From a virus (taxonomy: Duplodnaviria; Heunggongvirae; Uroviricota; Caudoviricetes), in IMG/VR virus record IMGVR_UViG_3300026472_000003, positions 18,851-82,850 of that record: a DNA stretch of 64,000 nucleotides, one strand, 5' to 3'. Shown here piece after piece: positions 22,371-61,832 of this stretch. The position numbers and the translations under genes are program-made. The notes under the pieces are model-generated. The model was given only the letters and a program-made list of their open reading frames with translations. It searched no databases and was not told the DNA's origin. Positions within the stretch are counted from its first letter, which is position 1, and each line of letters opens with the position of its first letter.

Positions 22371-22693
22371 TGGTACGTTTCCTTCAAGCCATCCCATTTG
22401 TCGCACTTGTGATCAACATATTTTTCTATTTGTCTTTTAAGCATAGCCAAGTTAATCGCGCCTTTATTAATTCCCTGTCGGTCAAGTGCCTCCACCTCCA
22501 TCATGTAAACCAAATCCACGGCGCTGTTGAGAACATCAGCTATCTCTGCAATTGGAGGTTCAGTGCAGCGGTGCGGTCTATTCAAAGACCTCGCTAGTTC
22601 ACCAACCTCTTCCACCAAGATTTTGAAGACTGAATCTACAGTACGGGGCGGGGCCTGAACACTTGACTGTAAAACGCGGTCGATTATTTCCAT
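22367..22693 (-). CDS. mazG: MazG-like nucleotide pyrophosphohydrolase
   Basis: KILVEEVGELA...AEIADVL (EExxE...ExxD). Confidence 0.75.
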   Translation of the reverse strand: MEIIDRVLQSSVQAPPRTVDSVFKILVEEVGELARSLNRPHRCTEPPIAEIADVLNSAVDLVYMMEVEALDRQGINKGAINLAMLKRQIEKYVDHKCDKWDGLKETYQ

Positions 22694-54046: not shown

Positions 54047-56088
54047 ATGACTGCAACAGCTCAATACCCAAACAACCCATCTTTCACAGAGTTTCGTGAT
54101 GCAATTCGTGCTCAGTTCGCACTGATGCAGACCTTAGGTGAAGTCTACACAGTAGACCTGGAGAAGAACGCTCTGTTCGAGTTCTACTTGGATTCTTACC
54201 CAGAAGGCACCAACGTATTGTACCGTGAGCGCCGTGAGTATGATGGCAATTACGATAAGAGCTTCATCCGCACTATCGGTCGCACAGTTGTGTTGCATAA
54301 CAACAAGCCTGTTTCAGTCTGGGATATTCAGATTGGTGGTTACTACCAAGTTGTTGTTGACGCGATGAGGGAAATGGTTGAAGGCGCACCGATCAAAGAC
54401 CGATTCTTCCACTTGGAACCAAGTGTCGGCGTAGAGAAGAATGTTGAGCTGAACGAGGCAACAGGCAAAACCAAAACCTGGACTCACTTCTACACCCGAC
54501 TGCCAAGCAGCCTCGTTAAGCGTGGTGACCAGATTGGGCCTTTGAAAGGTGAATTGCGTGACAACTTCTCGGTTCTGGAGCGTTCCCTCCGCGACATCAC
54601 CATGGAATCGGCGGAGATTGTCCGCGACCTGATTGACCAGAAGTCTCTTTATAAAGGTGATGAGAAGAAACACCTCGTCGAGGCCTTTATCAAAGCGAAG
54701 AAGGCATATGATAAAGTTCCACCACACCGTCGTGTTAATTTCTGCTGAAAGAGAGTGAAACTCTTGGCAAGGTTGGACGATTCCGTAACGATGTGATCGG
54801 CACTCTATTGAGCGACCTGTCCGAGGGTGTTGACCTTGAAGCTGCTGTTAAGAAGTTTGAAGATAAGGTGTCCGGCACCAACTACAAACGTCCAACGGCG
54901 CTGGTAACGACCGCGATGGTTAAAAAAGCACAGCAGAAAGTTGAAGAGTTGGGATTACAGGATGCTCTGGCTCGTCGCTTCGCGGTTGCTCCAGACCTGA
55001 CGATCAACAACGTCTTGTTTGCTGACCGCACTGCCAAGGTTCAGATGAACGCCTTTGACGTGCTGGCTAAAGAATCAAAAGGTAGTCCTAAGAACTTGGA
55101 CAAAGTTGAAGAAATCAGCATTGAAGATTTCATCTCTAATGTTCTGCCGAAGGCTGGAAGCATTGAAGTGCTGGTTGAGAACCGCTTAACACCGAACTTG
55201 GTCAGCCTGCTTGCTCCGGCAAATGAGGGCGCACCGAACCTGTTCCAGTGGAACAACGGTTTCTCTTGGTCTTACAATGGTGAAGTTACTGACTCCATCA
55301 AAGAGAAAGTAAAAGCAGCGGGTGGTCGTGTTGACGGCGCTCTGCGTGTATCCTTGTCTTGGACAAACTCAGATGACTTGGATCTCCACATGCATGGGCC
55401 AAAAGGTAGCCATGTCTACTACAGCCGCTCCCATCGCCGTGCCAATGGTGCTTTCTTAGACCTTGACATGAACGGCATGGATAAGCATGATGACATCAGC
55501 CCTGTTGAGAATATCATCTGGGAAGATGAGAATCGGATCGATGAGGGTGTGTACCGTATTGTTGTGAATCAATACAACAAACGCATGAATGACCGTGAAG
55601 GGTTCATTGTTGAGCTTGATTTCAAGGGCCAGGTGTACACCTTCAACTATCCAAAGGCACACCGCAGCGGTAACATTGAAGTGTTGACCTTCAAGTACAG
55701 CAAAAAAGGCGGCGTGGAGATCATTGACAGTATTGGTCACACCAAGCAAAGCAAAGAAGTGTGGGGAATGAATACTGAATCCTTCCAAAAGGTCAGCTTG
55801 GTGATGAACTCACCTAACTTCTGGGATGGTCAGACTAACGGTAACAAGCACTACTTCTTCATGTTGGAAGGTTGTGTTAACCCGTCAGCAACACGCGGTT
55901 TCTACAATGAGTATTTACGTGGTGAACTGCATGAACACCGTAAAGTGTTTGAGCTGCTGAGTGGAAAACTCAAAGCAGAGTTCACCGAAGAGCAGTTGAG
56001 CGGCTTAGGCTTCTCTTCCACTCAACGTAACGACTTAATTGTCAAGGTTGGCGGTTCCTTTAACCGCACATTAAAAGTTAAATTTTAA
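54047..56088 (+). pseudogene. single ~680-aa gene split by an apparent 1-nt deletion at ~54747 (track ORFs 54047-54748 and 54793-56088); YfaP/DUF2135-like C-terminal domain
   Basis: TGC TG- AAA GAG AGT...: restoring one G reads NFC-W-KESETLGKVGRFRNDVIGTLL continuously; ORF2 has no RBS; LRVSLSW...DLDLH motif. Confidence 0.7.
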
Positions 56089-56735: not shown

Positions 56736-56760
56736 AAGCCCCGCATGGGGCTTTTCTTGT
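56736..56760 (+). terminator. intrinsic terminator
   Basis: AAGCCCC-gcat-GGGGCTT-TTCTTGT. Confidence 0.8.
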
Positions 56761-57036
56761 ATGGAGGACGAAGTGGAGAAAAGAGAAATAGGCTATCATC
56801 TAAAGGACATCCCAAAACGCAACTATGGGTCTTTTGGCAAGATACAGGAAGAGCTGGAAGAGCTTGATGACGCTCATCGGCAAGGCAGTAAGGTAATGAT
56901 GCTGGTCGAACTCAGCGACATGTACGGTGCGATAGAGGGCTATCTGGAGGAGAACTTCCCTGGCATGAAGATGCACGACTTGGCTAAGTTCTCCGACATC
57001 ACAAAACGTGCATTTAAAAATGGATACCGCCAATGA
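56761..57036 (+). CDS. MazG/all-alpha NTP-pyrophosphatase-like small protein
   Basis: KIQEELEELDDA...VELSDMYGAI (EExxE...ExxD); start uncertain. Confidence 0.55.
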   Translation: MEDEVEKREIGYHLKDIPKRNYGSFGKIQEELEELDDAHRQGSKVMMLVELSDMYGAIEGYLEENFPGMKMHDLAKFSDITKRAFKNGYRQ

Positions 57037-57596
57037 ACATTAACCTTGACTTAGTTATGGAGGCTGTTGCTTTTTATGGCAATTGGTGCCATCCGGCAAC
57101 TGTACCTTACCTTGTTGACCCCGACATTATGGCGTTCACCTGTCCCCCAGGGGTTGTTGACCGCCGTCTAACGCACTTCGACGGAAAGCAGTATGTTGCC
57201 AGCGCGGAGCAATCTTTCTTGCAAATAGAAAAAGAAGGTAAGCTAGGCCCCACCTGCCCACCGCTGATGGCCTTAACCCCTTGTTATCGGGATGAGAGTG
57301 TTCTTGACGATGTCCATCTGAACATCTTTCTTAAACTGGAGATTTTTGATTACAACCCACCAAGCAAAAAAGACACCCCTTTGTGGTGGGCTGAAAGGAT
57401 GGTTGAGTTCTTCGACGGGAGAGGTGTTTGGACTCACATTGTGAAGACGGACATTGGCTATGACGTACTGACAAAGTCAGACTTAGAGTTGGGTTCCTTC
57501 GGCTACAGAACCTCACCACAAGGCGTTCGGTACGTCTATGCGACTGGGCTAGCAGAGCCACGGGCTTCCATCGCTATCGAGGAGGAAAATGGCTAA
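57033..57596 (+). CDS. minimal class II aminoacyl-tRNA synthetase-like catalytic core
   Basis: motif 2-like TPCYRDE..LDDVHLNIFLKLE; motif 3-like YATGLAEPR; ASAEQSFL; only 187 aa with no anticodon-binding domain. Confidence 0.7.
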   Translation: MNINLDLVMEAVAFYGNWCHPATVPYLVDPDIMAFTCPPGVVDRRLTHFDGKQYVASAEQSFLQIEKEGKLGPTCPPLMALTPCYRDESVLDDVHLNIFLKLEIFDYNPPSKKDTPLWWAERMVEFFDGRGVWTHIVKTDIGYDVLTKSDLELGSFGYRTSPQGVRYVYATGLAEPRASIAIEEENG

Positions 57597-57927
57597 GATC
57601 TTAAACTTTTACCACATCGGTAAGGTTATCCCTCCCAACGCTGAGTACATGGGGCGAGCAATGCCCCACCTCGGCCTTAAGCAATCCAAGTTTGCAAATC
57701 CTTTTAAACTGTCCAAGGGTGAACCTCGTGGTGCCACGATTGAGCGCTATCGCGTCTGGTTGTGGCAGCAGATCCGCTCCGGTAAAATAACTATACAAGA
57801 TTTGCTTGACTTGGATGGCAAAGACCTTGTATGCTTCTGTAAACAGCCAAACAAAGAGGTGGAGTGTCATTGTGATGTCATAATGGCAGCTATCGAATGG
57901 GCCAAAAAACAGAGGAAACCACCATGA
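57589..57927 (+). CDS. DUF4326 domain protein
   Basis: YMGR...SKFANPF...Y..WL...LDGKDLVCFC...CHCDVI. Confidence 0.8.
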   Translation: MAKILNFYHIGKVIPPNAEYMGRAMPHLGLKQSKFANPFKLSKGEPRGATIERYRVWLWQQIRSGKITIQDLLDLDGKDLVCFCKQPNKEVECHCDVIMAAIEWAKKQRKPP

Positions 57928-58226
57928 AAAAATTAATTATTGCTCTTGCTTTATTTTGTTCTGCGGCGAGTGCCAACTCTTTAGACCACGTATTTTATGA
58001 CGAGAACGGAGTCCGTGTCTTAAGCGCAGAACAAAAGGCAGAACTCTCCAAACAAGTAGGCCCTGAAATTGTGGAGATGTTGCAATATCAACAGACCCGA
58101 GCAGCTTACAATGTCCTGATTGCCAAAATGGAACTCAAGTTGGCAGAAGCCGAGCGAGACAAGGCGCTACTTGAACAAGAGCTTTCTATTCACCGTAAGA
58201 GACTTGGAAAAGCCAATGAGAAATAA
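57924..58226 (+). CDS. secreted coiled-coil protein
   Basis: signal peptide MKKLIIALALFCSAASA; ATGA overlap. Confidence 0.7.
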   Translation: MKKLIIALALFCSAASANSLDHVFYDENGVRVLSAEQKAELSKQVGPEIVEMLQYQQTRAAYNVLIAKMELKLAEAERDKALLEQELSIHRKRLGKANEK

Positions 58227-58724: not shown

Positions 58725-58910
58725 ATGGTTTCAGTTGTTTCACCACAAAAAGTTATGCAAGCGACCTGCTACAAATGCAAGGCCGGACTTGAATATGTCT
58801 TCACTGAGATAAAAGAGAAGACCACCACTGACTACACAGATGGACGGGATGTAGTAAAATACATCGTCTGCCCTGTGTGTAACAACCATGTAACTGTAGG
58901 GTTTTTATAA
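58725..58910 (+). CDS. zinc-ribbon protein
   Basis: CYKC...CPVC; AGGAG RBS. Confidence 0.75.
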   Translation: MVSVVSPQKVMQATCYKCKAGLEYVFTEIKEKTTTDYTDGRDVVKYIVCPVCNNHVTVGFL

Positions 58911-60001
58911 TGCAAACTGTAAACGGCCTGATTTTTGGTAAATTTGCCCCATTGACGCTGGGTCACATTGAACTGATCAACCAAGCACTCCGACAGTGCG
59001 ACCATTTATATTTGTTCTTGTCCTTCGACCAGAAGTTCTTGAACAGTCAGCCTGAGTGGCTCCAGGCGAAGCTGGGCCTTGTTGATCGTCTACGTGACTT
59101 AAAGGATGTTGTGAGTAACGCCCCCGAACACGTAAGAAGCTCTATTACTGTCTCTTATGTGGATGAGTCCAACATACCTGACTACCCAGAAGGGGCGAAG
59201 GCTTATGAAGGCTTAATCCGTGCAGGTTTGCCAGAGGGAGTGGTTCTTCATAAGGCCTTCTCTTCTGAACGAGAGTACACGGCTTATTTCTCGGAGCACT
59301 TCCCTGAATGCGAGCACGTAGTGATTGACCCAGACCGATCTGAGGTGCCTATCTCTGCGACGAAGATCCGTGGCAATGTGTACAGCAACTTCAATATGCT
59401 GGCACCTCCGGCGAAGAAGCGTTTTGTCAAAAAGGTGGCTATTGTTGGGGTGGAAAGCACGGGTAAAACCACGCTCTCACAACTCTTATCGGAACACTTC
59501 TCGGCCCGTTATACATCGGAAATAGGTCGGACAATTTGTGAGGAAGACTTCTACGGGTCGGAGTTCCTGATGCATCGTGAGGACTACCTCGCCATTGCGA
59601 TGGATCACCGCCAAGTGGAGAACTATCATGCTAAACTCTCGGATGTTGGAGTGACGTTCTCTGATACGACAAATCTAATCACCCACTTCTCGGCTGTGTG
59701 CTCGTTGAAGACAGATTTGCTCGACCCGTTATTCTTGGCCCTTGATAAAGAAGAAGGTGACAATTTCTATGACTTGGTGCTGTACTTACAGCCCGATGTG
59801 CCTTGGGTAGCAGACCCACTGCGCCTCCAGGATACACCGGAGAAGCGAAAAGAAACAAACGAATTGCTTGACTCCATGATCACTAAGTCGTATAGTGGCA
59901 CCCAAGTCGTTAAGATCGACGGTGATAACTACAATGTCCGAACTGCCAAGGCAATTCAGATTGTTGAAGACTTCTTGATGGGTAAAGTATTGGAGATTTA
60001 A
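58910..60001 (+). CDS. nadR: NadR-like bifunctional NMN adenylyltransferase / nicotinamide riboside kinase, lacking the repressor HTH
   Basis: FGKFAPLTLGH (HxGH type), PISATKIR, P-loop GVESTGKTT, FSDT, PWVADPLR. Confidence 0.92.
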   Translation: MQTVNGLIFGKFAPLTLGHIELINQALRQCDHLYLFLSFDQKFLNSQPEWLQAKLGLVDRLRDLKDVVSNAPEHVRSSITVSYVDESNIPDYPEGAKAYEGLIRAGLPEGVVLHKAFSSEREYTAYFSEHFPECEHVVIDPDRSEVPISATKIRGNVYSNFNMLAPPAKKRFVKKVAIVGVESTGKTTLSQLLSEHFSARYTSEIGRTICEEDFYGSEFLMHREDYLAIAMDHRQVENYHAKLSDVGVTFSDTTNLITHFSAVCSLKTDLLDPLFLALDKEEGDNFYDLVLYLQPDVPWVADPLRLQDTPEKRKETNELLDSMITKSYSGTQVVKIDGDNYNVRTAKAIQIVEDFLMGKVLEI

Positions 60002-60436: not shown

Positions 60437-61087
60437 TTGGTCTATGGTAAGGGTATAAACGACTCCCCGACCCCGTGTCAGAAATTCAAATGGGAAGATG
60501 GTAAGCCCAAGCTGGTGTGGAGATGCCCTTACTACGACCTGTGGACGGGTATTTTGTACAGGTGCTACTCACCATCTTTTCATAAAAAACAACCAACCTA
60601 TGCTGGTTGTTGCGTGGCAGATGAGTGGTTGACTTTCTCTGCTTTCAAAGATTGGGTGTTGAGAGATCCACTGCACAAAGAGTGGTTGAATAAGGAAGGA
60701 GACCTCCAGCTCGACAAAGACATCCTCTTGGAAGGAAATAGAGACTACACCCCGGCAGCTTGTGTTTTTATTCCTAAGTATGTGAATACTGCCCTGTCTT
60801 ATAGTAAGAACAGTGGATTGCCTATGGGTGTCACCCAGAGACCAGGACGATCGGGGTACGAAGTGGGATGCACTTTCTTGGGAAAAAGAAAATACTTGGG
60901 TACAAGACCAGACCCTTGGTCGGCCCATGCTCTATGGCAATACCAGAAGGTGTTGAATCTATTGTCTATTTTGAAAATGTACTCAACATCCAAATTCTTC
61001 AACAGTCATGTCGGAGATTCCTTAAAGAAAAGAATTGACAGAATCAGAAACGATCTCCAAAATGGGGAAGAGACAACACACTTATAG
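60437..61087 (+). CDS. HNH-like homing endonuclease (LDKDIL family), paralogue of 26656-27237
   Basis: W...FSAFKDW...LDKDILLEGNRDYTPAACVFIPKYVN. Confidence 0.75.
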   Translation: MVYGKGINDSPTPCQKFKWEDGKPKLVWRCPYYDLWTGILYRCYSPSFHKKQPTYAGCCVADEWLTFSAFKDWVLRDPLHKEWLNKEGDLQLDKDILLEGNRDYTPAACVFIPKYVNTALSYSKNSGLPMGVTQRPGRSGYEVGCTFLGKRKYLGTRPDPWSAHALWQYQKVLNLLSILKMYSTSKFFNSHVGDSLKKRIDRIRNDLQNGEETTHL

Positions 61088-61100
61088 GAGAAATGAGTAC

Positions 61101-61832
61101 ATGAAGAGTCTATACACAATGACGGCCTGGACAGACTTCTACGGGTGGAAGCCTCTTGAATATGCTTGGTTGGCTGTCTGCTCAATAGCTATCGCTATTA
61201 CCTCTGTCGTCATGGGTGGTGGGGTGATTGAGTTCATCTCCTCCGTGACGGGGATTATCGGTGCCATTTTGGTGGCGAAAGGTAAGCTGTCCAGTTATTA
61301 CTGGGGTTTCATCGCTACGGTGTTGTATGCGTACATCTCGTACAAGTACCAGCTCTATGGTGAGGCCATCATGTACACGATCCTGTTCACACCGATGCAG
61401 GTGATTGGGGCCTTTATCTGGGCGAAGAAATTAAAGGTATCCGCCGACGGCAGTCGGGCGGATGTTGTGAAGAAGTATCTGACCACAAAACAACGCTGGA
61501 TTGTTGGTATCGGAACATTAATCGTGATTGCTGTGTATGCTGAGTTTATCAGTCTACTGAATGGGGCAGCGCCAGGGTTGGATTCAGCAACAGCTATCTT
61601 GTCCATTCTTGCCACTTATCTGATGATGAAACGCTATGCAGAACAATGGTATGTGTGGATCATTGTTAACGTCGTGGCGGTAACCCTTTGGATTCAGACA
61701 GCCCTCCACCACGAGACACAAGGCTGGGCAGTGTTGGCAATGTGGACGGCGTTCCTACTAAACAGTATCTTTGGTGCCTACTTATGGCGAAAAATAGAAA
61801 AGGAAGAGGAAAACTATGCTCTCGTACATTGA
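61101..61832 (+). CDS. pnuC: PnuC nicotinamide riboside transporter
   Basis: about seven TM helices; GKLSSYYWG, LDSATAILSILATYLM.KRY.EQW..WII.N. Confidence 0.92.
   Translation: MKSLYTMTAWTDFYGWKPLEYAWLAVCSIAIAITSVVMGGGVIEFISSVTGIIGAILVAKGKLSSYYWGFIATVLYAYISYKYQLYGEAIMYTILFTPMQVIGAFIWAKKLKVSADGSRADVVKKYLTTKQRWIVGIGTLIVIAVYAEFISLLNGAAPGLDSATAILSILATYLMMKRYAEQWYVWIIVNVVAVTLWIQTALHHETQGWAVLAMWTAFLLNSIFGAYLWRKIEKEEENYALVH

What the first reader, a model, noticed from the sequence alone, without database searches (positions are those of the whole stretch)
56761..57927. Candidate undescribed three-gene system: NTP-pyrophosphatase-like + minimal class II aaRS-like ligase + DUF4326
Seen: directly after a terminator, three overlapping genes (ATGA and 8-nt overlaps). 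The middle one keeps class II synthetase motif 2 (PCYRDE...H...F.KLE) and motif 3 (ATGLAEPR) in only 187 aa, with no anticodon-binding domain. Established: truncated class II paralogues (EpmA/PoxA, AsnA, amino acid:carrier-protein ligases) adenylate amino acids and transfer them to non-tRNA acceptors, and synthetases can form Ap4A-type dinucleotides. Inference: this unit aminoacylates a host or phage protein, nucleotide or damaged tRNA, or makes or removes a nucleotide signal. The MazG-like protein could drive or clean up the reaction, and DUF4326 (recalled as linked to NAD/ADP-ribose gene neighbourhoods, unverified) could process the product. It lies just upstream of the NAD salvage genes.
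Basis: partly seen in the sequence, partly recalled or inferred. Interest (0 to 1): 0.75.

Follow-up and report, generated by a model that had tools for sequence, protein, structure and literature searches.

The report
Phage mini seryl-synthetase core with MazG partner
Two of the three overlapping phage genes form a widespread, unstudied pair (a stripped-down serine-activating core of seryl-tRNA synthetase plus a small MazG/HisE-like pyrophosphatase, fused in some genomes), whereas the third gene, DUF4326, is an independent neighbour that belongs with the NAD-salvage genes.

Summary
The three overlapping genes exist as described, just after a terminator hairpin. The middle protein (187 aa) is a complete class II synthetase core. 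It is closest to seryl-tRNA synthetase (Z 19.5, 187/187 residues aligned), and every ATP-, Mg- and serine-binding position that aligns with SerRS is invariant. It lacks the tRNA-binding arm and has a short, acidic motif-2 loop.

The first protein (83-87 aa) keeps the EExxE...ExxD signature of MazG/HisE pyrophosphatases. These two genes travel together: 273 versus 269 phage records with matching host taxa, and 56 of 59 fetched loci. They are fused (core then MazG, linker 0-3 residues) in Microcystis phages and in contigs binned to CPR/DPANN. The family has over 1,100 clusters at 50% identity and is almost all viral.

DUF4326 is not part of the unit. It occurs in 918 phage records with other hosts, lies 3-67 kb from the pair in other phages, and in Proteus phage Mydo, whose DUF4326 region holds no pair, it sits between NadR and PnuC.

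Function is untested. My best reading is a two-part enzyme that makes seryl-adenylate and acts on a non-tRNA, probably nucleotide-type, acceptor. This scan has already noted the same pair on other DNA (27 notes, at least 26 genomes). I found no paper on it.

The parts
56736..56762 (+). Intrinsic-terminator-like hairpin (AAGCCCCGCATGGGGCTT) plus T-rich tail. It closes the upstream operon and lies directly before the pair.
   Evidence: 7-bp stem, 5 G-C pairs, loop 4; sequence
56761..57036 (+). Small MazG/HisE-like all-alpha protein (phrog_6408). It is 91 aa from ATG 56761, but more likely 87 aa from GTG 56773, which has a GGAGG ribosome-binding site. Invariant positions (numbered on the 87-aa form) include E26 E27 E30 ... 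E46 D49 (the EExxE...ExxD motif), GYH at the N-terminus and TKRAFxxGxR at the C-terminus. It is the obligate partner of the next gene.
   Evidence: PRA-PH E 0.043, below cut-off; phrog_6408 E 6e-42
57033..57596 (+). Mini seryl-tRNA-synthetase catalytic core (187 aa, phrog_4806, labelled 'histidyl/seryl tRNA synthetase' in databases). It has motif 1 (P25), the TxE-like S57-A-E59, motif 2 R86/E88/F99, K101/E103, E152/S155, and motif 3 T171/R177. It has no N-terminal tRNA-binding arm, and its motif-2 loop is short and acidic.
   Evidence: SerRS 2dq3 E 2e-7; pLDDT 94.5; SerRS Z 19.5, rmsd 2.5, 187 aligned
57589..57927 (+). DUF4326 protein (112 aa). It is a neighbour, not part of the conserved pair, and belongs with the NadR/PnuC NAD-salvage neighbourhood of this phage group.
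   Evidence: PF14216 E 2.7e-18, 66.8 bits against cut-off 25; PMC9503650

Best explanation
The conserved unit is two genes, not three. A homodimer-type class II core derived from seryl-tRNA synthetase works with, and probably binds, a small MazG/HisE-type nucleotide pyrophosphatase. The core keeps everything needed to bind ATP-Mg and serine and to form seryl-adenylate. It has lost the tRNA-binding arm and the basic motif-2 loop that holds the tRNA acceptor stem, so the acceptor is most likely not a tRNA bound in the usual way. I infer that it acts on a small, probably nucleotide-type, molecule or an RNA/nucleotide end. The MazG-like partner would bind or cleave a nucleoside-triphosphate-type substrate, either to supply or present the acceptor or to remove a product. 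The fold, the invariant catalytic positions, the co-occurrence and the fusion are shown here. Serine specificity, the physical complex and the acceptor are inferred. DUF4326 is a separate gene of the NAD/ADP-ribose neighbourhood (DUF4326, NadR, PnuC), next to which the pair happens to sit in this lineage.
For: Fold and ancestry. The AF2 model has pLDDT 94.5. VIA-align against 48,161 chains puts SerRS structures on top (7u2a Z 19.5, rmsd 2.5, 187/187 aligned; other SerRS Z 17-18), with AsnA at 13.2 and LysRS at 13.1. Foldseek returns PylRS and SerRS catalytic domains with TMq 0.73-0.77. The family profile hits SerRS cores in PDB (E 2e-7). hhalign aligns residues 1-187 to residues 173-405 of a full-length SerRS.

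Active site. A56 S57 A58 E59 Q60 F62, P83 C84 R86, F99 K101 E103, E152 G154 S155 G157, and T171 A174 P176 R177 are invariant in 51 diverse members. They align with the SerRS blocks TxE, CFRxE, FxKVE, ExxS and GT(A/G)LA..R.

Not tRNA-like. The family has median pI 4.9 and net charge -9. The motif-2 loop has 12 residues, with a mean of 3.7 acidic and 0.35 basic residues. tRNA genes lie within 6 kb in only 9 of 41 lineages.

Partnership. 273 and 269 phage records carry the two genes, with matching taxa. The MazG-like gene lies within the fetched flank in 56 of 59 loci and 39 of 42 lineages. Fusions occur in MaMV-DC and in four contigs binned to CPR/DPANN, and in 9 of the 150 best library representatives, always core then MazG with a 0-3 residue linker. 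Gene order is sometimes reversed.

Size of the family. 1,144 clusters at 50% identity score E <= 1e-30. Clusters are 86-100% viral.

DUF4326 is separate.
Against: There is no biochemical data, and I found no paper on the pair. MazG/HisE membership of the small protein rests on the motif plus weak hits. Pfam PRA-PH scores 14.7 bits against a cut-off of 21.3. Foldseek gives E 0.6-0.9. VIA gives Z 5.5-5.8, tied with generic helical hairpins. Known truncated class II paralogues load proteins or carrier proteins, or amidate an amino acid; none is known to load a free nucleotide. In some lineages the neighbours are RNA-end repair genes (RlaP in 4 lineages, CCA-adding enzyme in 3, RNA ligase in 2 proteins of the census), and in Caulobacter phage CcrBL9 the pair lies inside the tRNA array, so a tRNA 3'-end substrate is not excluded. 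Three lineages (Acj61, L025, L049/L053) show no MazG-like gene in the flank.
Confidence: 0.55

Rival explanations
1. tRNA-end reading. The mini-SerRS acts on the 3'-terminal adenosine of tRNAs (phage or host tRNA-Ser, or damaged or blocked tRNA ends). It recharges or protects them, and the MazG-like partner clears a blocking group or nucleotide. This would be a counter-measure to tRNA-targeting defences.
For: In Certrevirus-type phages and the L008 contig the pair lies 2-6 kb from a CCA-adding enzyme and an RlaP nucleotidyltransferase. The neighbour census also found RNA ligase, HAD_SAK_2, an Rv2179c-like exoribonuclease and DSP phosphatases. In CcrBL9 the pair is inside the tRNA array. This phage encodes 20 tRNAs, three of them tRNA-Ser. 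The serine-binding positions are conserved.
Against: The core has no tRNA-binding arm, and its motif-2 loop is shortened and acidic rather than basic. The whole family is acidic. tRNA genes are near the pair in only 9 of 41 lineages, and tRNA-Ser in one. In this phage the CCA-adding enzyme, RlaP and RNA ligase lie 20-60 kb from the pair. Unselective serylation of tRNAs would cause mistranslation.
Confidence: 0.2
2. Dinucleoside-polyphosphate reading. The core uses seryl-adenylate only as an intermediate and transfers AMP to the terminal phosphate of a nucleotide held by the MazG-like partner, making Ap4N or a similar compound; or the partner degrades such compounds. The pair would set the level of an alarmone, cap or signal during infection.
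For: Ap4A synthesis needs only the class II catalytic core, and SerRS is an established Ap4A maker (my own knowledge: Belrhali et al. 1995; not checked in the library). All ATP- and Mg-binding residues are invariant. In every fusion the MazG-like N-terminus follows the motif-3 helix directly. Neighbours are often nucleotide-metabolism genes: anaerobic RNR, ThyX, kinases and Nudix.
Against: No MazG-family enzyme is known to bind an acceptor for a synthetase. Making and then destroying the same compound would be futile. There is no direct evidence for this reading.
Confidence: 0.12
3. MazG-like, mini-synthetase and DUF4326 form one pathway tied to NAD/ADP-ribose.
For: The three genes overlap here and in Erwinia Henunavirus phages. 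DUF4326 is predicted to process phosphates on ADP-ribose derivatives (PMC9503650). NAD-related genes lie near the pair in a few distant lineages. This phage has NadR and PnuC. Bacillus phage G has NadD and NadE 2-3 kb upstream. A Saccharibacteria chromosome has an operon of AAA_28 kinase, MazG-like gene and core, with a divergent Nudix. A Magnetococcales contig has an NAD(P)HX dehydratase next door.
Against: DUF4326 is adjacent to the pair in 1 of 42 lineages. It is 3-5 kb away in phAPEC8-type phages and 67 kb away in CR8. It occurs in 918 phage records with a different host spectrum. In Mydo it sits between NadR and PnuC with no pair nearby. One apparent NMNAT neighbour (L006) turned out to be CoaD-like. 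Overlapping starts are ordinary here.
Confidence: 0.07
4. Sensor reading. As HisZ does for HisG, the core is a non-catalytic amino-acid/ATP sensor that regulates the MazG-like pyrophosphatase.
For: HisZ and HisRS-like chains score almost as high as SerRS by structure (3rac Z 17.7, 3od1 Z 17.0, 1z7m Z 15.3). The partner is HisE-like.
Against: All catalytic residues (motif 2 and 3 arginines, Mg ligands E152/S155, adenine-stacking F99) are invariant across 51 members down to about 30% identity. That is not expected of a pure sensor.
Confidence: 0.06

Closest known systems
Bacterial/eukaryal-type seryl-tRNA synthetase (SerRS, class IIa), catalytic domain
   Same: Same fold over all 187 residues (Z 17-19.5, rmsd about 2.5). 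Motifs 1-3 and the blocks TxE, FxKxE, ExxS and GT(G/A)LA..R align and are invariant.
   Different: No N-terminal coiled-coil tRNA arm and no C-terminal tail. The motif-2 loop is about 6 residues shorter and acidic, and several inter-strand loops are deleted. The gene is always paired or fused with a MazG-like protein. The family is almost entirely viral.
Amino acid:[carrier-protein] ligases (SerRS-like class II homologues such as Bll0957, PDB 3mey)
   Same: A SerRS-like core without a tRNA-binding domain, encoded next to a small helical protein of about 80 aa. Structural match Z 17.1.
   Different: The small partner here carries the EExxE...ExxD metal-binding motif of MazG/HisE. It has no conserved phosphopantetheine-attachment serine: S48 is often Ala. 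The ligases are about 300 aa, against 187 here.
HisZ (HisRS-like regulatory subunit) and HisE (PRA-PH) of histidine biosynthesis
   Same: A class II-like protein and a HisE-type all-alpha pyrophosphatase in one functional context. Structural hits are to HisZ (Z 15-17) and HisE.
   Different: The core is SerRS-type with intact catalytic residues. No HisG-like gene turned up among the neighbours scanned. The partner does not reach the Pfam PRA-PH cut-off.
MazZ-PurZ pair of phages with 2-aminoadenine DNA (my own knowledge; not checked in the paper library)
   Same: A phage MazG-family pyrophosphatase works with an ATP-dependent ligase that uses an amino acid. This is a precedent for a MazG enzyme feeding a nucleotide to a ligase.
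   Different: PurZ is an adenylosuccinate-synthetase homologue, not a class II synthetase. Nothing here indicates DNA base replacement.
DUF4326 (PF14216), a rhodanese-phosphatase-like clade of viral NAD/ADP-ribose networks (Iyer et al. 2022, PMC9503650)
   Same: The third gene is a clear member (66.8 bits) and lies in a NadR/PnuC neighbourhood, as that paper's context predicts.
   Different: It is a stand-alone 112-aa form. It is not linked to the MazG/mini-SerRS pair outside this lineage.

Membership tests
Class II aminoacyl-tRNA synthetase catalytic core | Six-stranded antiparallel sheet fold with motifs 1, 2 and 3 | tested here: met
   AF2 pLDDT 94.5. Foldseek returns PylRS/SerRS with TMq 0.73-0.77. 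VIA gives Z 19.5 with 187/187 aligned.
Class II aminoacyl-tRNA synthetase catalytic core | Invariant motif-2 Arg and motif-3 Arg, adenine-stacking Phe, Mg ligands | tested here: met
   R86, R177, F99, E152 and S155 are invariant in 51 members.
Seryl-tRNA synthetase (functional SerRS) | SerRS-specific active-site blocks (TxE, CFRxE, FxKVE, ExxS, GT(A/G)LA..R) | tested here: met
   Profile-to-PDB alignment and hhalign to a full-length SerRS.
Seryl-tRNA synthetase (functional SerRS) | N-terminal coiled-coil tRNA-binding arm (Seryl_tRNA_N) | tested here: not met
   The protein begins at the equivalent of SerRS residue 173. The window protein has no Pfam hit. No longer homologues were found.
Seryl-tRNA synthetase (functional SerRS) | Long basic motif-2 loop that holds the acceptor stem | tested here: not met
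   The loop has 12 residues, with a mean of 3.7 D/E and 0.35 K/R. It is shorter than the loop of the full-length SerRS aligned.
Seryl-tRNA synthetase (functional SerRS) | Serylation of tRNA-Ser | not testable with these tools
   Needs an aminoacylation assay.
Amino acid:[carrier-protein] ligase system | Adjacent carrier protein with a conserved phosphopantetheinylated Ser | tested here: not met
   The partner's only candidate Ser (S48 in ELSD) is not conserved, whereas the MazG-type acidic motif is invariant.
MazG/HisE all-alpha NTP pyrophosphatase superfamily (small protein) | EExxE ... ExxD metal-binding signature on consecutive helices | tested here: met
   E26, E27, E30, E46 and D49 are invariant in 44 members. 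They lie on helices 21-37 and 40-61 of the model.
MazG/HisE all-alpha NTP pyrophosphatase superfamily (small protein) | Significant match to the family models or fold | tested here: inconclusive
   PRA-PH E 0.043, 14.7 bits against a cut-off of 21.3. The top Foldseek hits are HisE and MazG, but at E 0.6-0.9. VIA Z 5.5-5.8 is tied with generic hairpins. Atlas neighbour clusters carry PRA-PH and MazG. Two homologues carry PF01503.
DUF4326 (PF14216) | Match above the Pfam gathering score | tested here: met
   66.8 bits against 25, E 2.7e-18.
Proposed three-gene system (MazG-like + mini-synthetase + DUF4326) | The three genes co-occur across genomes | tested here: not met
   DUF4326 is adjacent in 1 of 42 lineages. 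It occurs in 918 records against about 270, with different hosts. Mydo has DUF4326 with no pair in the 8.3 kb around it.
Two-gene module (MazG-like + mini-SerRS) | Co-occurrence, adjacency and fusion across distant genomes | tested here: met
Known anti-phage defence components (PADLOC) | Match to any defence-system model | tested here: not met
   No hit for any of the three proteins at E <= 0.01.

The most novel reading that the evidence does not exclude
The mini-SerRS core and its MazG/HisE-like partner are one enzyme of a kind not yet described. It uses seryl-adenylate chemistry on a free nucleotide or nucleotide-derived cofactor: either it serylates the ribose, or it transfers AMP to a phosphate to make an Np(n)N- or NAD-like compound. 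On this reading it is kept by more than a thousand lineages of large phages and by nucleotide-scavenging CPR/DPANN cells as part of nucleotide salvage or signalling.
Probability: 0.15. Interest if true: 0.85.

Novelty: new variant of a known kind. Interest (0 to 1): 0.6.

Why it matters
Truncated class II synthetase paralogues (EpmA, AsnA, HisZ, carrier-protein ligases) have each revealed unexpected chemistry. This one is the smallest complete SerRS-type core I could find and has an intact active site. It is locked to a nucleotide pyrophosphatase across more than 1,100 sequence clusters, which come from large phages and also from at least one bacterial chromosome with a reduced genome. Databases label it 'histidyl/seryl tRNA synthetase', and label its DUF4326 neighbour 'ribonucleotide reductase NrdA-like'; both labels mislead phage annotation. 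Identifying its substrate would define a new viral enzyme activity. It would also bear on how little of a synthetase is needed for catalysis.

Tried and rejected
- **Carrier-protein idea.** The 83-aa helical partner might have been an ACP-like acceptor, as with aa:CP ligases. I rejected this because the only candidate Ser is not conserved, while the MazG acidic motif is invariant.
- **A universal third partner.** All-against-all clustering of 883 neighbouring ORFs, a Pfam census of 296 neighbours and targeted jackhmmer searches found only lineage-specific neighbours. One apparent cluster (c1) was the antisense ORF of the MazG-like gene.
- **NAD link.** It recurs in a few distant lineages, but it is not general, and one case (L006) is CoaD-like rather than NMNAT.
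- **Linkage to tRNA genes.** It is not general.
- **Longer fused forms.** None above 414 aa was found (weak evidence).
- **Sequence-only PDB searches.** The single proteins gave nothing, and the small-protein profile gave only noise.
- **Acj61.** Its downstream 107-aa gene is not a divergent MazG-like protein.
- **Other checks.** PADLOC gave no defence-family hit. The literature searches found no study of the pair. VIA-align on the small protein was uninformative.
Full report
**Observation.** The window holds three co-directional ORFs at 56761-57036, 57033-57596 and 57589-57927. They overlap by ATGA and by 8 nt. A terminator-like hairpin at 56736-56753 precedes them. The first gene probably starts at GTG 56773, which has GGAGG upstream; this gives 87 aa, the length of the exact-match protein in the public collection, and homologues are 83 aa. 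Overlapping starts are ordinary in this phage group: 10 of 17 junctions overlap in the annotated Erwinia relative. The next gene, a signal-peptide protein from ATG 57924, also overlaps DUF4326 by ATGA. Overlap is therefore not evidence of a unit.

**The genome.** It is a complete 146,850-bp phage with terminal repeats and 20 tRNA genes. Its nearest relatives are the Erwinia Henunavirus phages (Vequintavirinae), at about 73% nucleotide identity over this region.

**The middle protein.**
- It has no Pfam or NCBIfam hit. It matches phrog_4806, which is labelled 'histidyl tRNA synthetase' (E 9e-56).
- A 51-member alignment (A1) has 20 invariant columns. Its profile hits SerRS catalytic domains in PDB (2dq3 E 2e-7).
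- The AF2 model is confident (pLDDT 94.5, pTM 0.89). Foldseek returns PylRS and SerRS catalytic domains.
- An exhaustive VIA-align run ranks SerRS first (7u2a Z 19.5, rmsd 2.5, all 187 residues aligned). Below it come HisRS/HisZ (about 17), the carrier-protein ligase Bll0957 (17.1), PylRS (16.6), AsnA (13.2) and LysRS (13.1).
- hhalign places residues 1-187 on residues 173-405 of a full-length SerRS. VASAEQSF aligns with the TxE block, TPCYRDE with CFRRE, FLKLE with FNKVE, ELGS with EVGS, and ATGLAEPR with NTAIATSR. From my own knowledge of SerRS structures, these are the positions that bind ATP, Mg and serine. I could not confirm the residue roles in the paper library.
- Missing parts are the tRNA-binding arm, about six residues of the motif-2 loop, and several other loops.
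- The family is uniformly acidic (median pI 4.9). Its motif-2 loop is acidic rather than basic.

**The first protein.**
- It matches phrog_6408 (E 6e-42).
- Across 44 members, GYH, K-x-x-EE-x-x-E, E-x-x-D and TKRAF-x-x-G-x-R are invariant.
- Pfam PRA-PH is a sub-threshold hit. The best Foldseek hits are HisE and MazG, but they are weak. VIA is uninformative. Atlas neighbour clusters carry PRA-PH and MazG.
- I read it as a probable minimal MazG/HisE-type pyrophosphatase.

**Partnership.**
- tblastn finds the two proteins in 273 and 269 of 50,697 phage records, with nearly identical taxon counts. The hosts span coliphages of the phAPEC8/phi92 type, Certrevirus, T4-like Acinetobacter phages, Caulobacter and Brevundimonas jumbo phages, Microcystis phages and Bacillus phage G.
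- In 59 fetched loci (42 lineages below 65% identity), the MazG-like gene lies in the flank in 56 loci, usually immediately upstream and sometimes downstream.
- The two are fused in Microcystis phage MaMV-DC and in four contigs binned to CPR/DPANN. They are also fused in 9 of the 150 best representatives of a library of 1.84 billion proteins. The order is always core then MazG, with a 0-3 residue linker.
- That library holds 1,144 clusters at E <= 1e-30. Atlas clusters are 86-100% viral.
- Only 15 of about 185,000 species genomes hold the core, almost all of them MAGs.
- One is a genuine chromosomal site in a Saccharibacteria genome, between fusA and rpsG/rpsL/rpoC. There an AAA_28 kinase, the MazG-like gene and the core have overlapping starts, and a Nudix gene lies divergently upstream.

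**DUF4326.**
- The third protein is a clear PF14216 member.
- Iyer et al. 2022 describe DUF4326 as a rhodanese-phosphatase-like clade.
- It is adjacent to the pair only in this phage and the Henunavirus phages. It lies 3-5 kb upstream in phAPEC8-type phages and about 67 kb away in CR8.
- It occurs in 918 phage records, dominated by Klebsiella, Salmonella, Erwinia, Pseudomonas and Vibrio phages.
- In Proteus phage Mydo it sits between NadR and PnuC, and no pair is annotated in the 8.3 kb around it.
- It therefore belongs to the NAD-salvage neighbourhood. In this window that neighbourhood is NadR at 58910-60001 and PnuC at 61035-61832.

**Search for other partners.** Clustering of neighbouring ORFs and a Pfam census of 296 neighbours gave no universal third gene. 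Recurrent but lineage-limited neighbours were:
- RlaP (4 lineages), CCA-adding enzyme (3), RNA ligase, and DSP phosphatase (3 related jumbo phages);
- Nuc_deoxyri_tr2, anaerobic RNR genes, ThyX and helicases;
- NAD genes;
- in three contigs binned to CPR/DPANN, a small MoaA/viperin-like radical-SAM protein translationally coupled to the fused gene.

The general theme is nucleotide, NAD and RNA-end metabolism. tRNA genes are near the pair in 9 of 41 lineages. In this phage the CCA-adding enzyme, RlaP and RNA ligase are 20-60 kb away.

**Mechanism.** Shown here: a complete, conserved SerRS-type adenylate-forming site; loss of the tRNA-binding elements; and an obligate, sometimes covalent, link to a MazG/HisE-like protein with an intact metal-binding motif. 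Inferred: the core makes seryl-adenylate, the two proteins form one enzyme, and the acceptor is not a canonically bound tRNA but a small nucleotide-type molecule or a nucleotide/RNA end. The rivals are tRNA 3'-end charging or protection, dinucleoside-polyphosphate synthesis, the three-gene NAD system, and a HisZ-like sensor. They are weighed in their own sections.

**Prior knowledge.** I found no paper on the pair. Genome papers and databases call the core a seryl- or histidyl-tRNA synthetase. This scan has reported the same pair on other DNA many times, with the same conclusion.

**Verdict.** The two-gene unit is real and uncharacterised. The three-gene system is not supported.

Noticed in passing
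window 57897-58226 (likely start ATG 57924, overlapping the DUF4326 stop by ATGA): A small protein with a clear N-terminal signal peptide (MKKLIIALALFCSAASANS...). It has a weak, sub-threshold resemblance to T4 Spackle (PF25676, E 0.072), so it may be a periplasmic superinfection-exclusion-type protein.
   Followed up: no
window 54047-54748 and 54793-56088: Two consecutive ORFs match the N-terminal part (3-225) and the C-terminal part (242-673) of one PHROG family (phrog_1735, 673 positions). In the Erwinia relative the corresponding region holds a single 680-aa CDS (L001 919-2961). The gene is therefore split or frameshifted here, as another note on this window says.
   Followed up: partly
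L055 6938-8390 (Saccharibacteria MAG, 797-kb contig): A chromosomal operon with overlapping starts: an AAA_28 (NadR-type) kinase, the MazG-like gene and the mini-SerRS core. A Nudix gene lies divergently upstream. The site lies between fusA and rpsG/rpsL/rpoC. It is a rare cellular, non-phage context for the pair.
   Followed up: partly
L044 8822-9487, L052 8789-9475, L050 7299-7973: In three contigs binned to DPANN/CPR, a small radical-SAM protein (221-228 aa) lies directly beside the fused mini-SerRS-MazG gene. Its weak best hits are to MoaA, viperin and NrdG, and all are below their cut-offs. In two of the three contigs the genes overlap by 4 nt.
   Followed up: partly
L051 5801-7096 and 7980-8795: A full-length SerRS gene (431 aa, with the Seryl_tRNA_N arm) lies about 900 bp upstream of the fused mini-SerRS-MazG gene, in a contig binned to Nanoarchaeota. 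The mini form therefore does not replace the real synthetase.
   Followed up: partly
L002 4551-5939 (phage phAPEC8 gp043): A 462-aa protein overlaps the end of the mini-SerRS gene by 8 nt. It is labelled 'ribonucleotide reductase' (phrog_15930) but has no Pfam or NCBIfam hit. It lies just upstream of the anaerobic RNR genes nrdD and nrdG.
   Followed up: partly
L008 7202-7987; L060 3495-4118: The MazG-like module also occurs with extra domains: a 180-aa N-terminal extension in a metagenomic phage contig, and a C-terminal extension of about 130 aa in Acinetobacter phage AM101. Neither extension matched a known family.
   Followed up: no
RefSeq and PHROG annotations seen: There are systematic mislabels. 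DUF4326 proteins are named 'ribonucleotide reductase NrdA-like', and the mini-SerRS core is named 'histidyl tRNA synthetase'.
   Followed up: yes
own genome G000:C1:41355-41492 (- strand; window about 22505-22642) and 135154-135762: The phage also has a second, unrelated weak MazG-like ORF (PF03819 E 5.5e-4, below cut-off) and a SIR2-family gene. These may correspond to the sirtuin/RNA-repair neighbourhood that Iyer et al. 2022 describe for rV5/Mydo-type phages.
   Followed up: no
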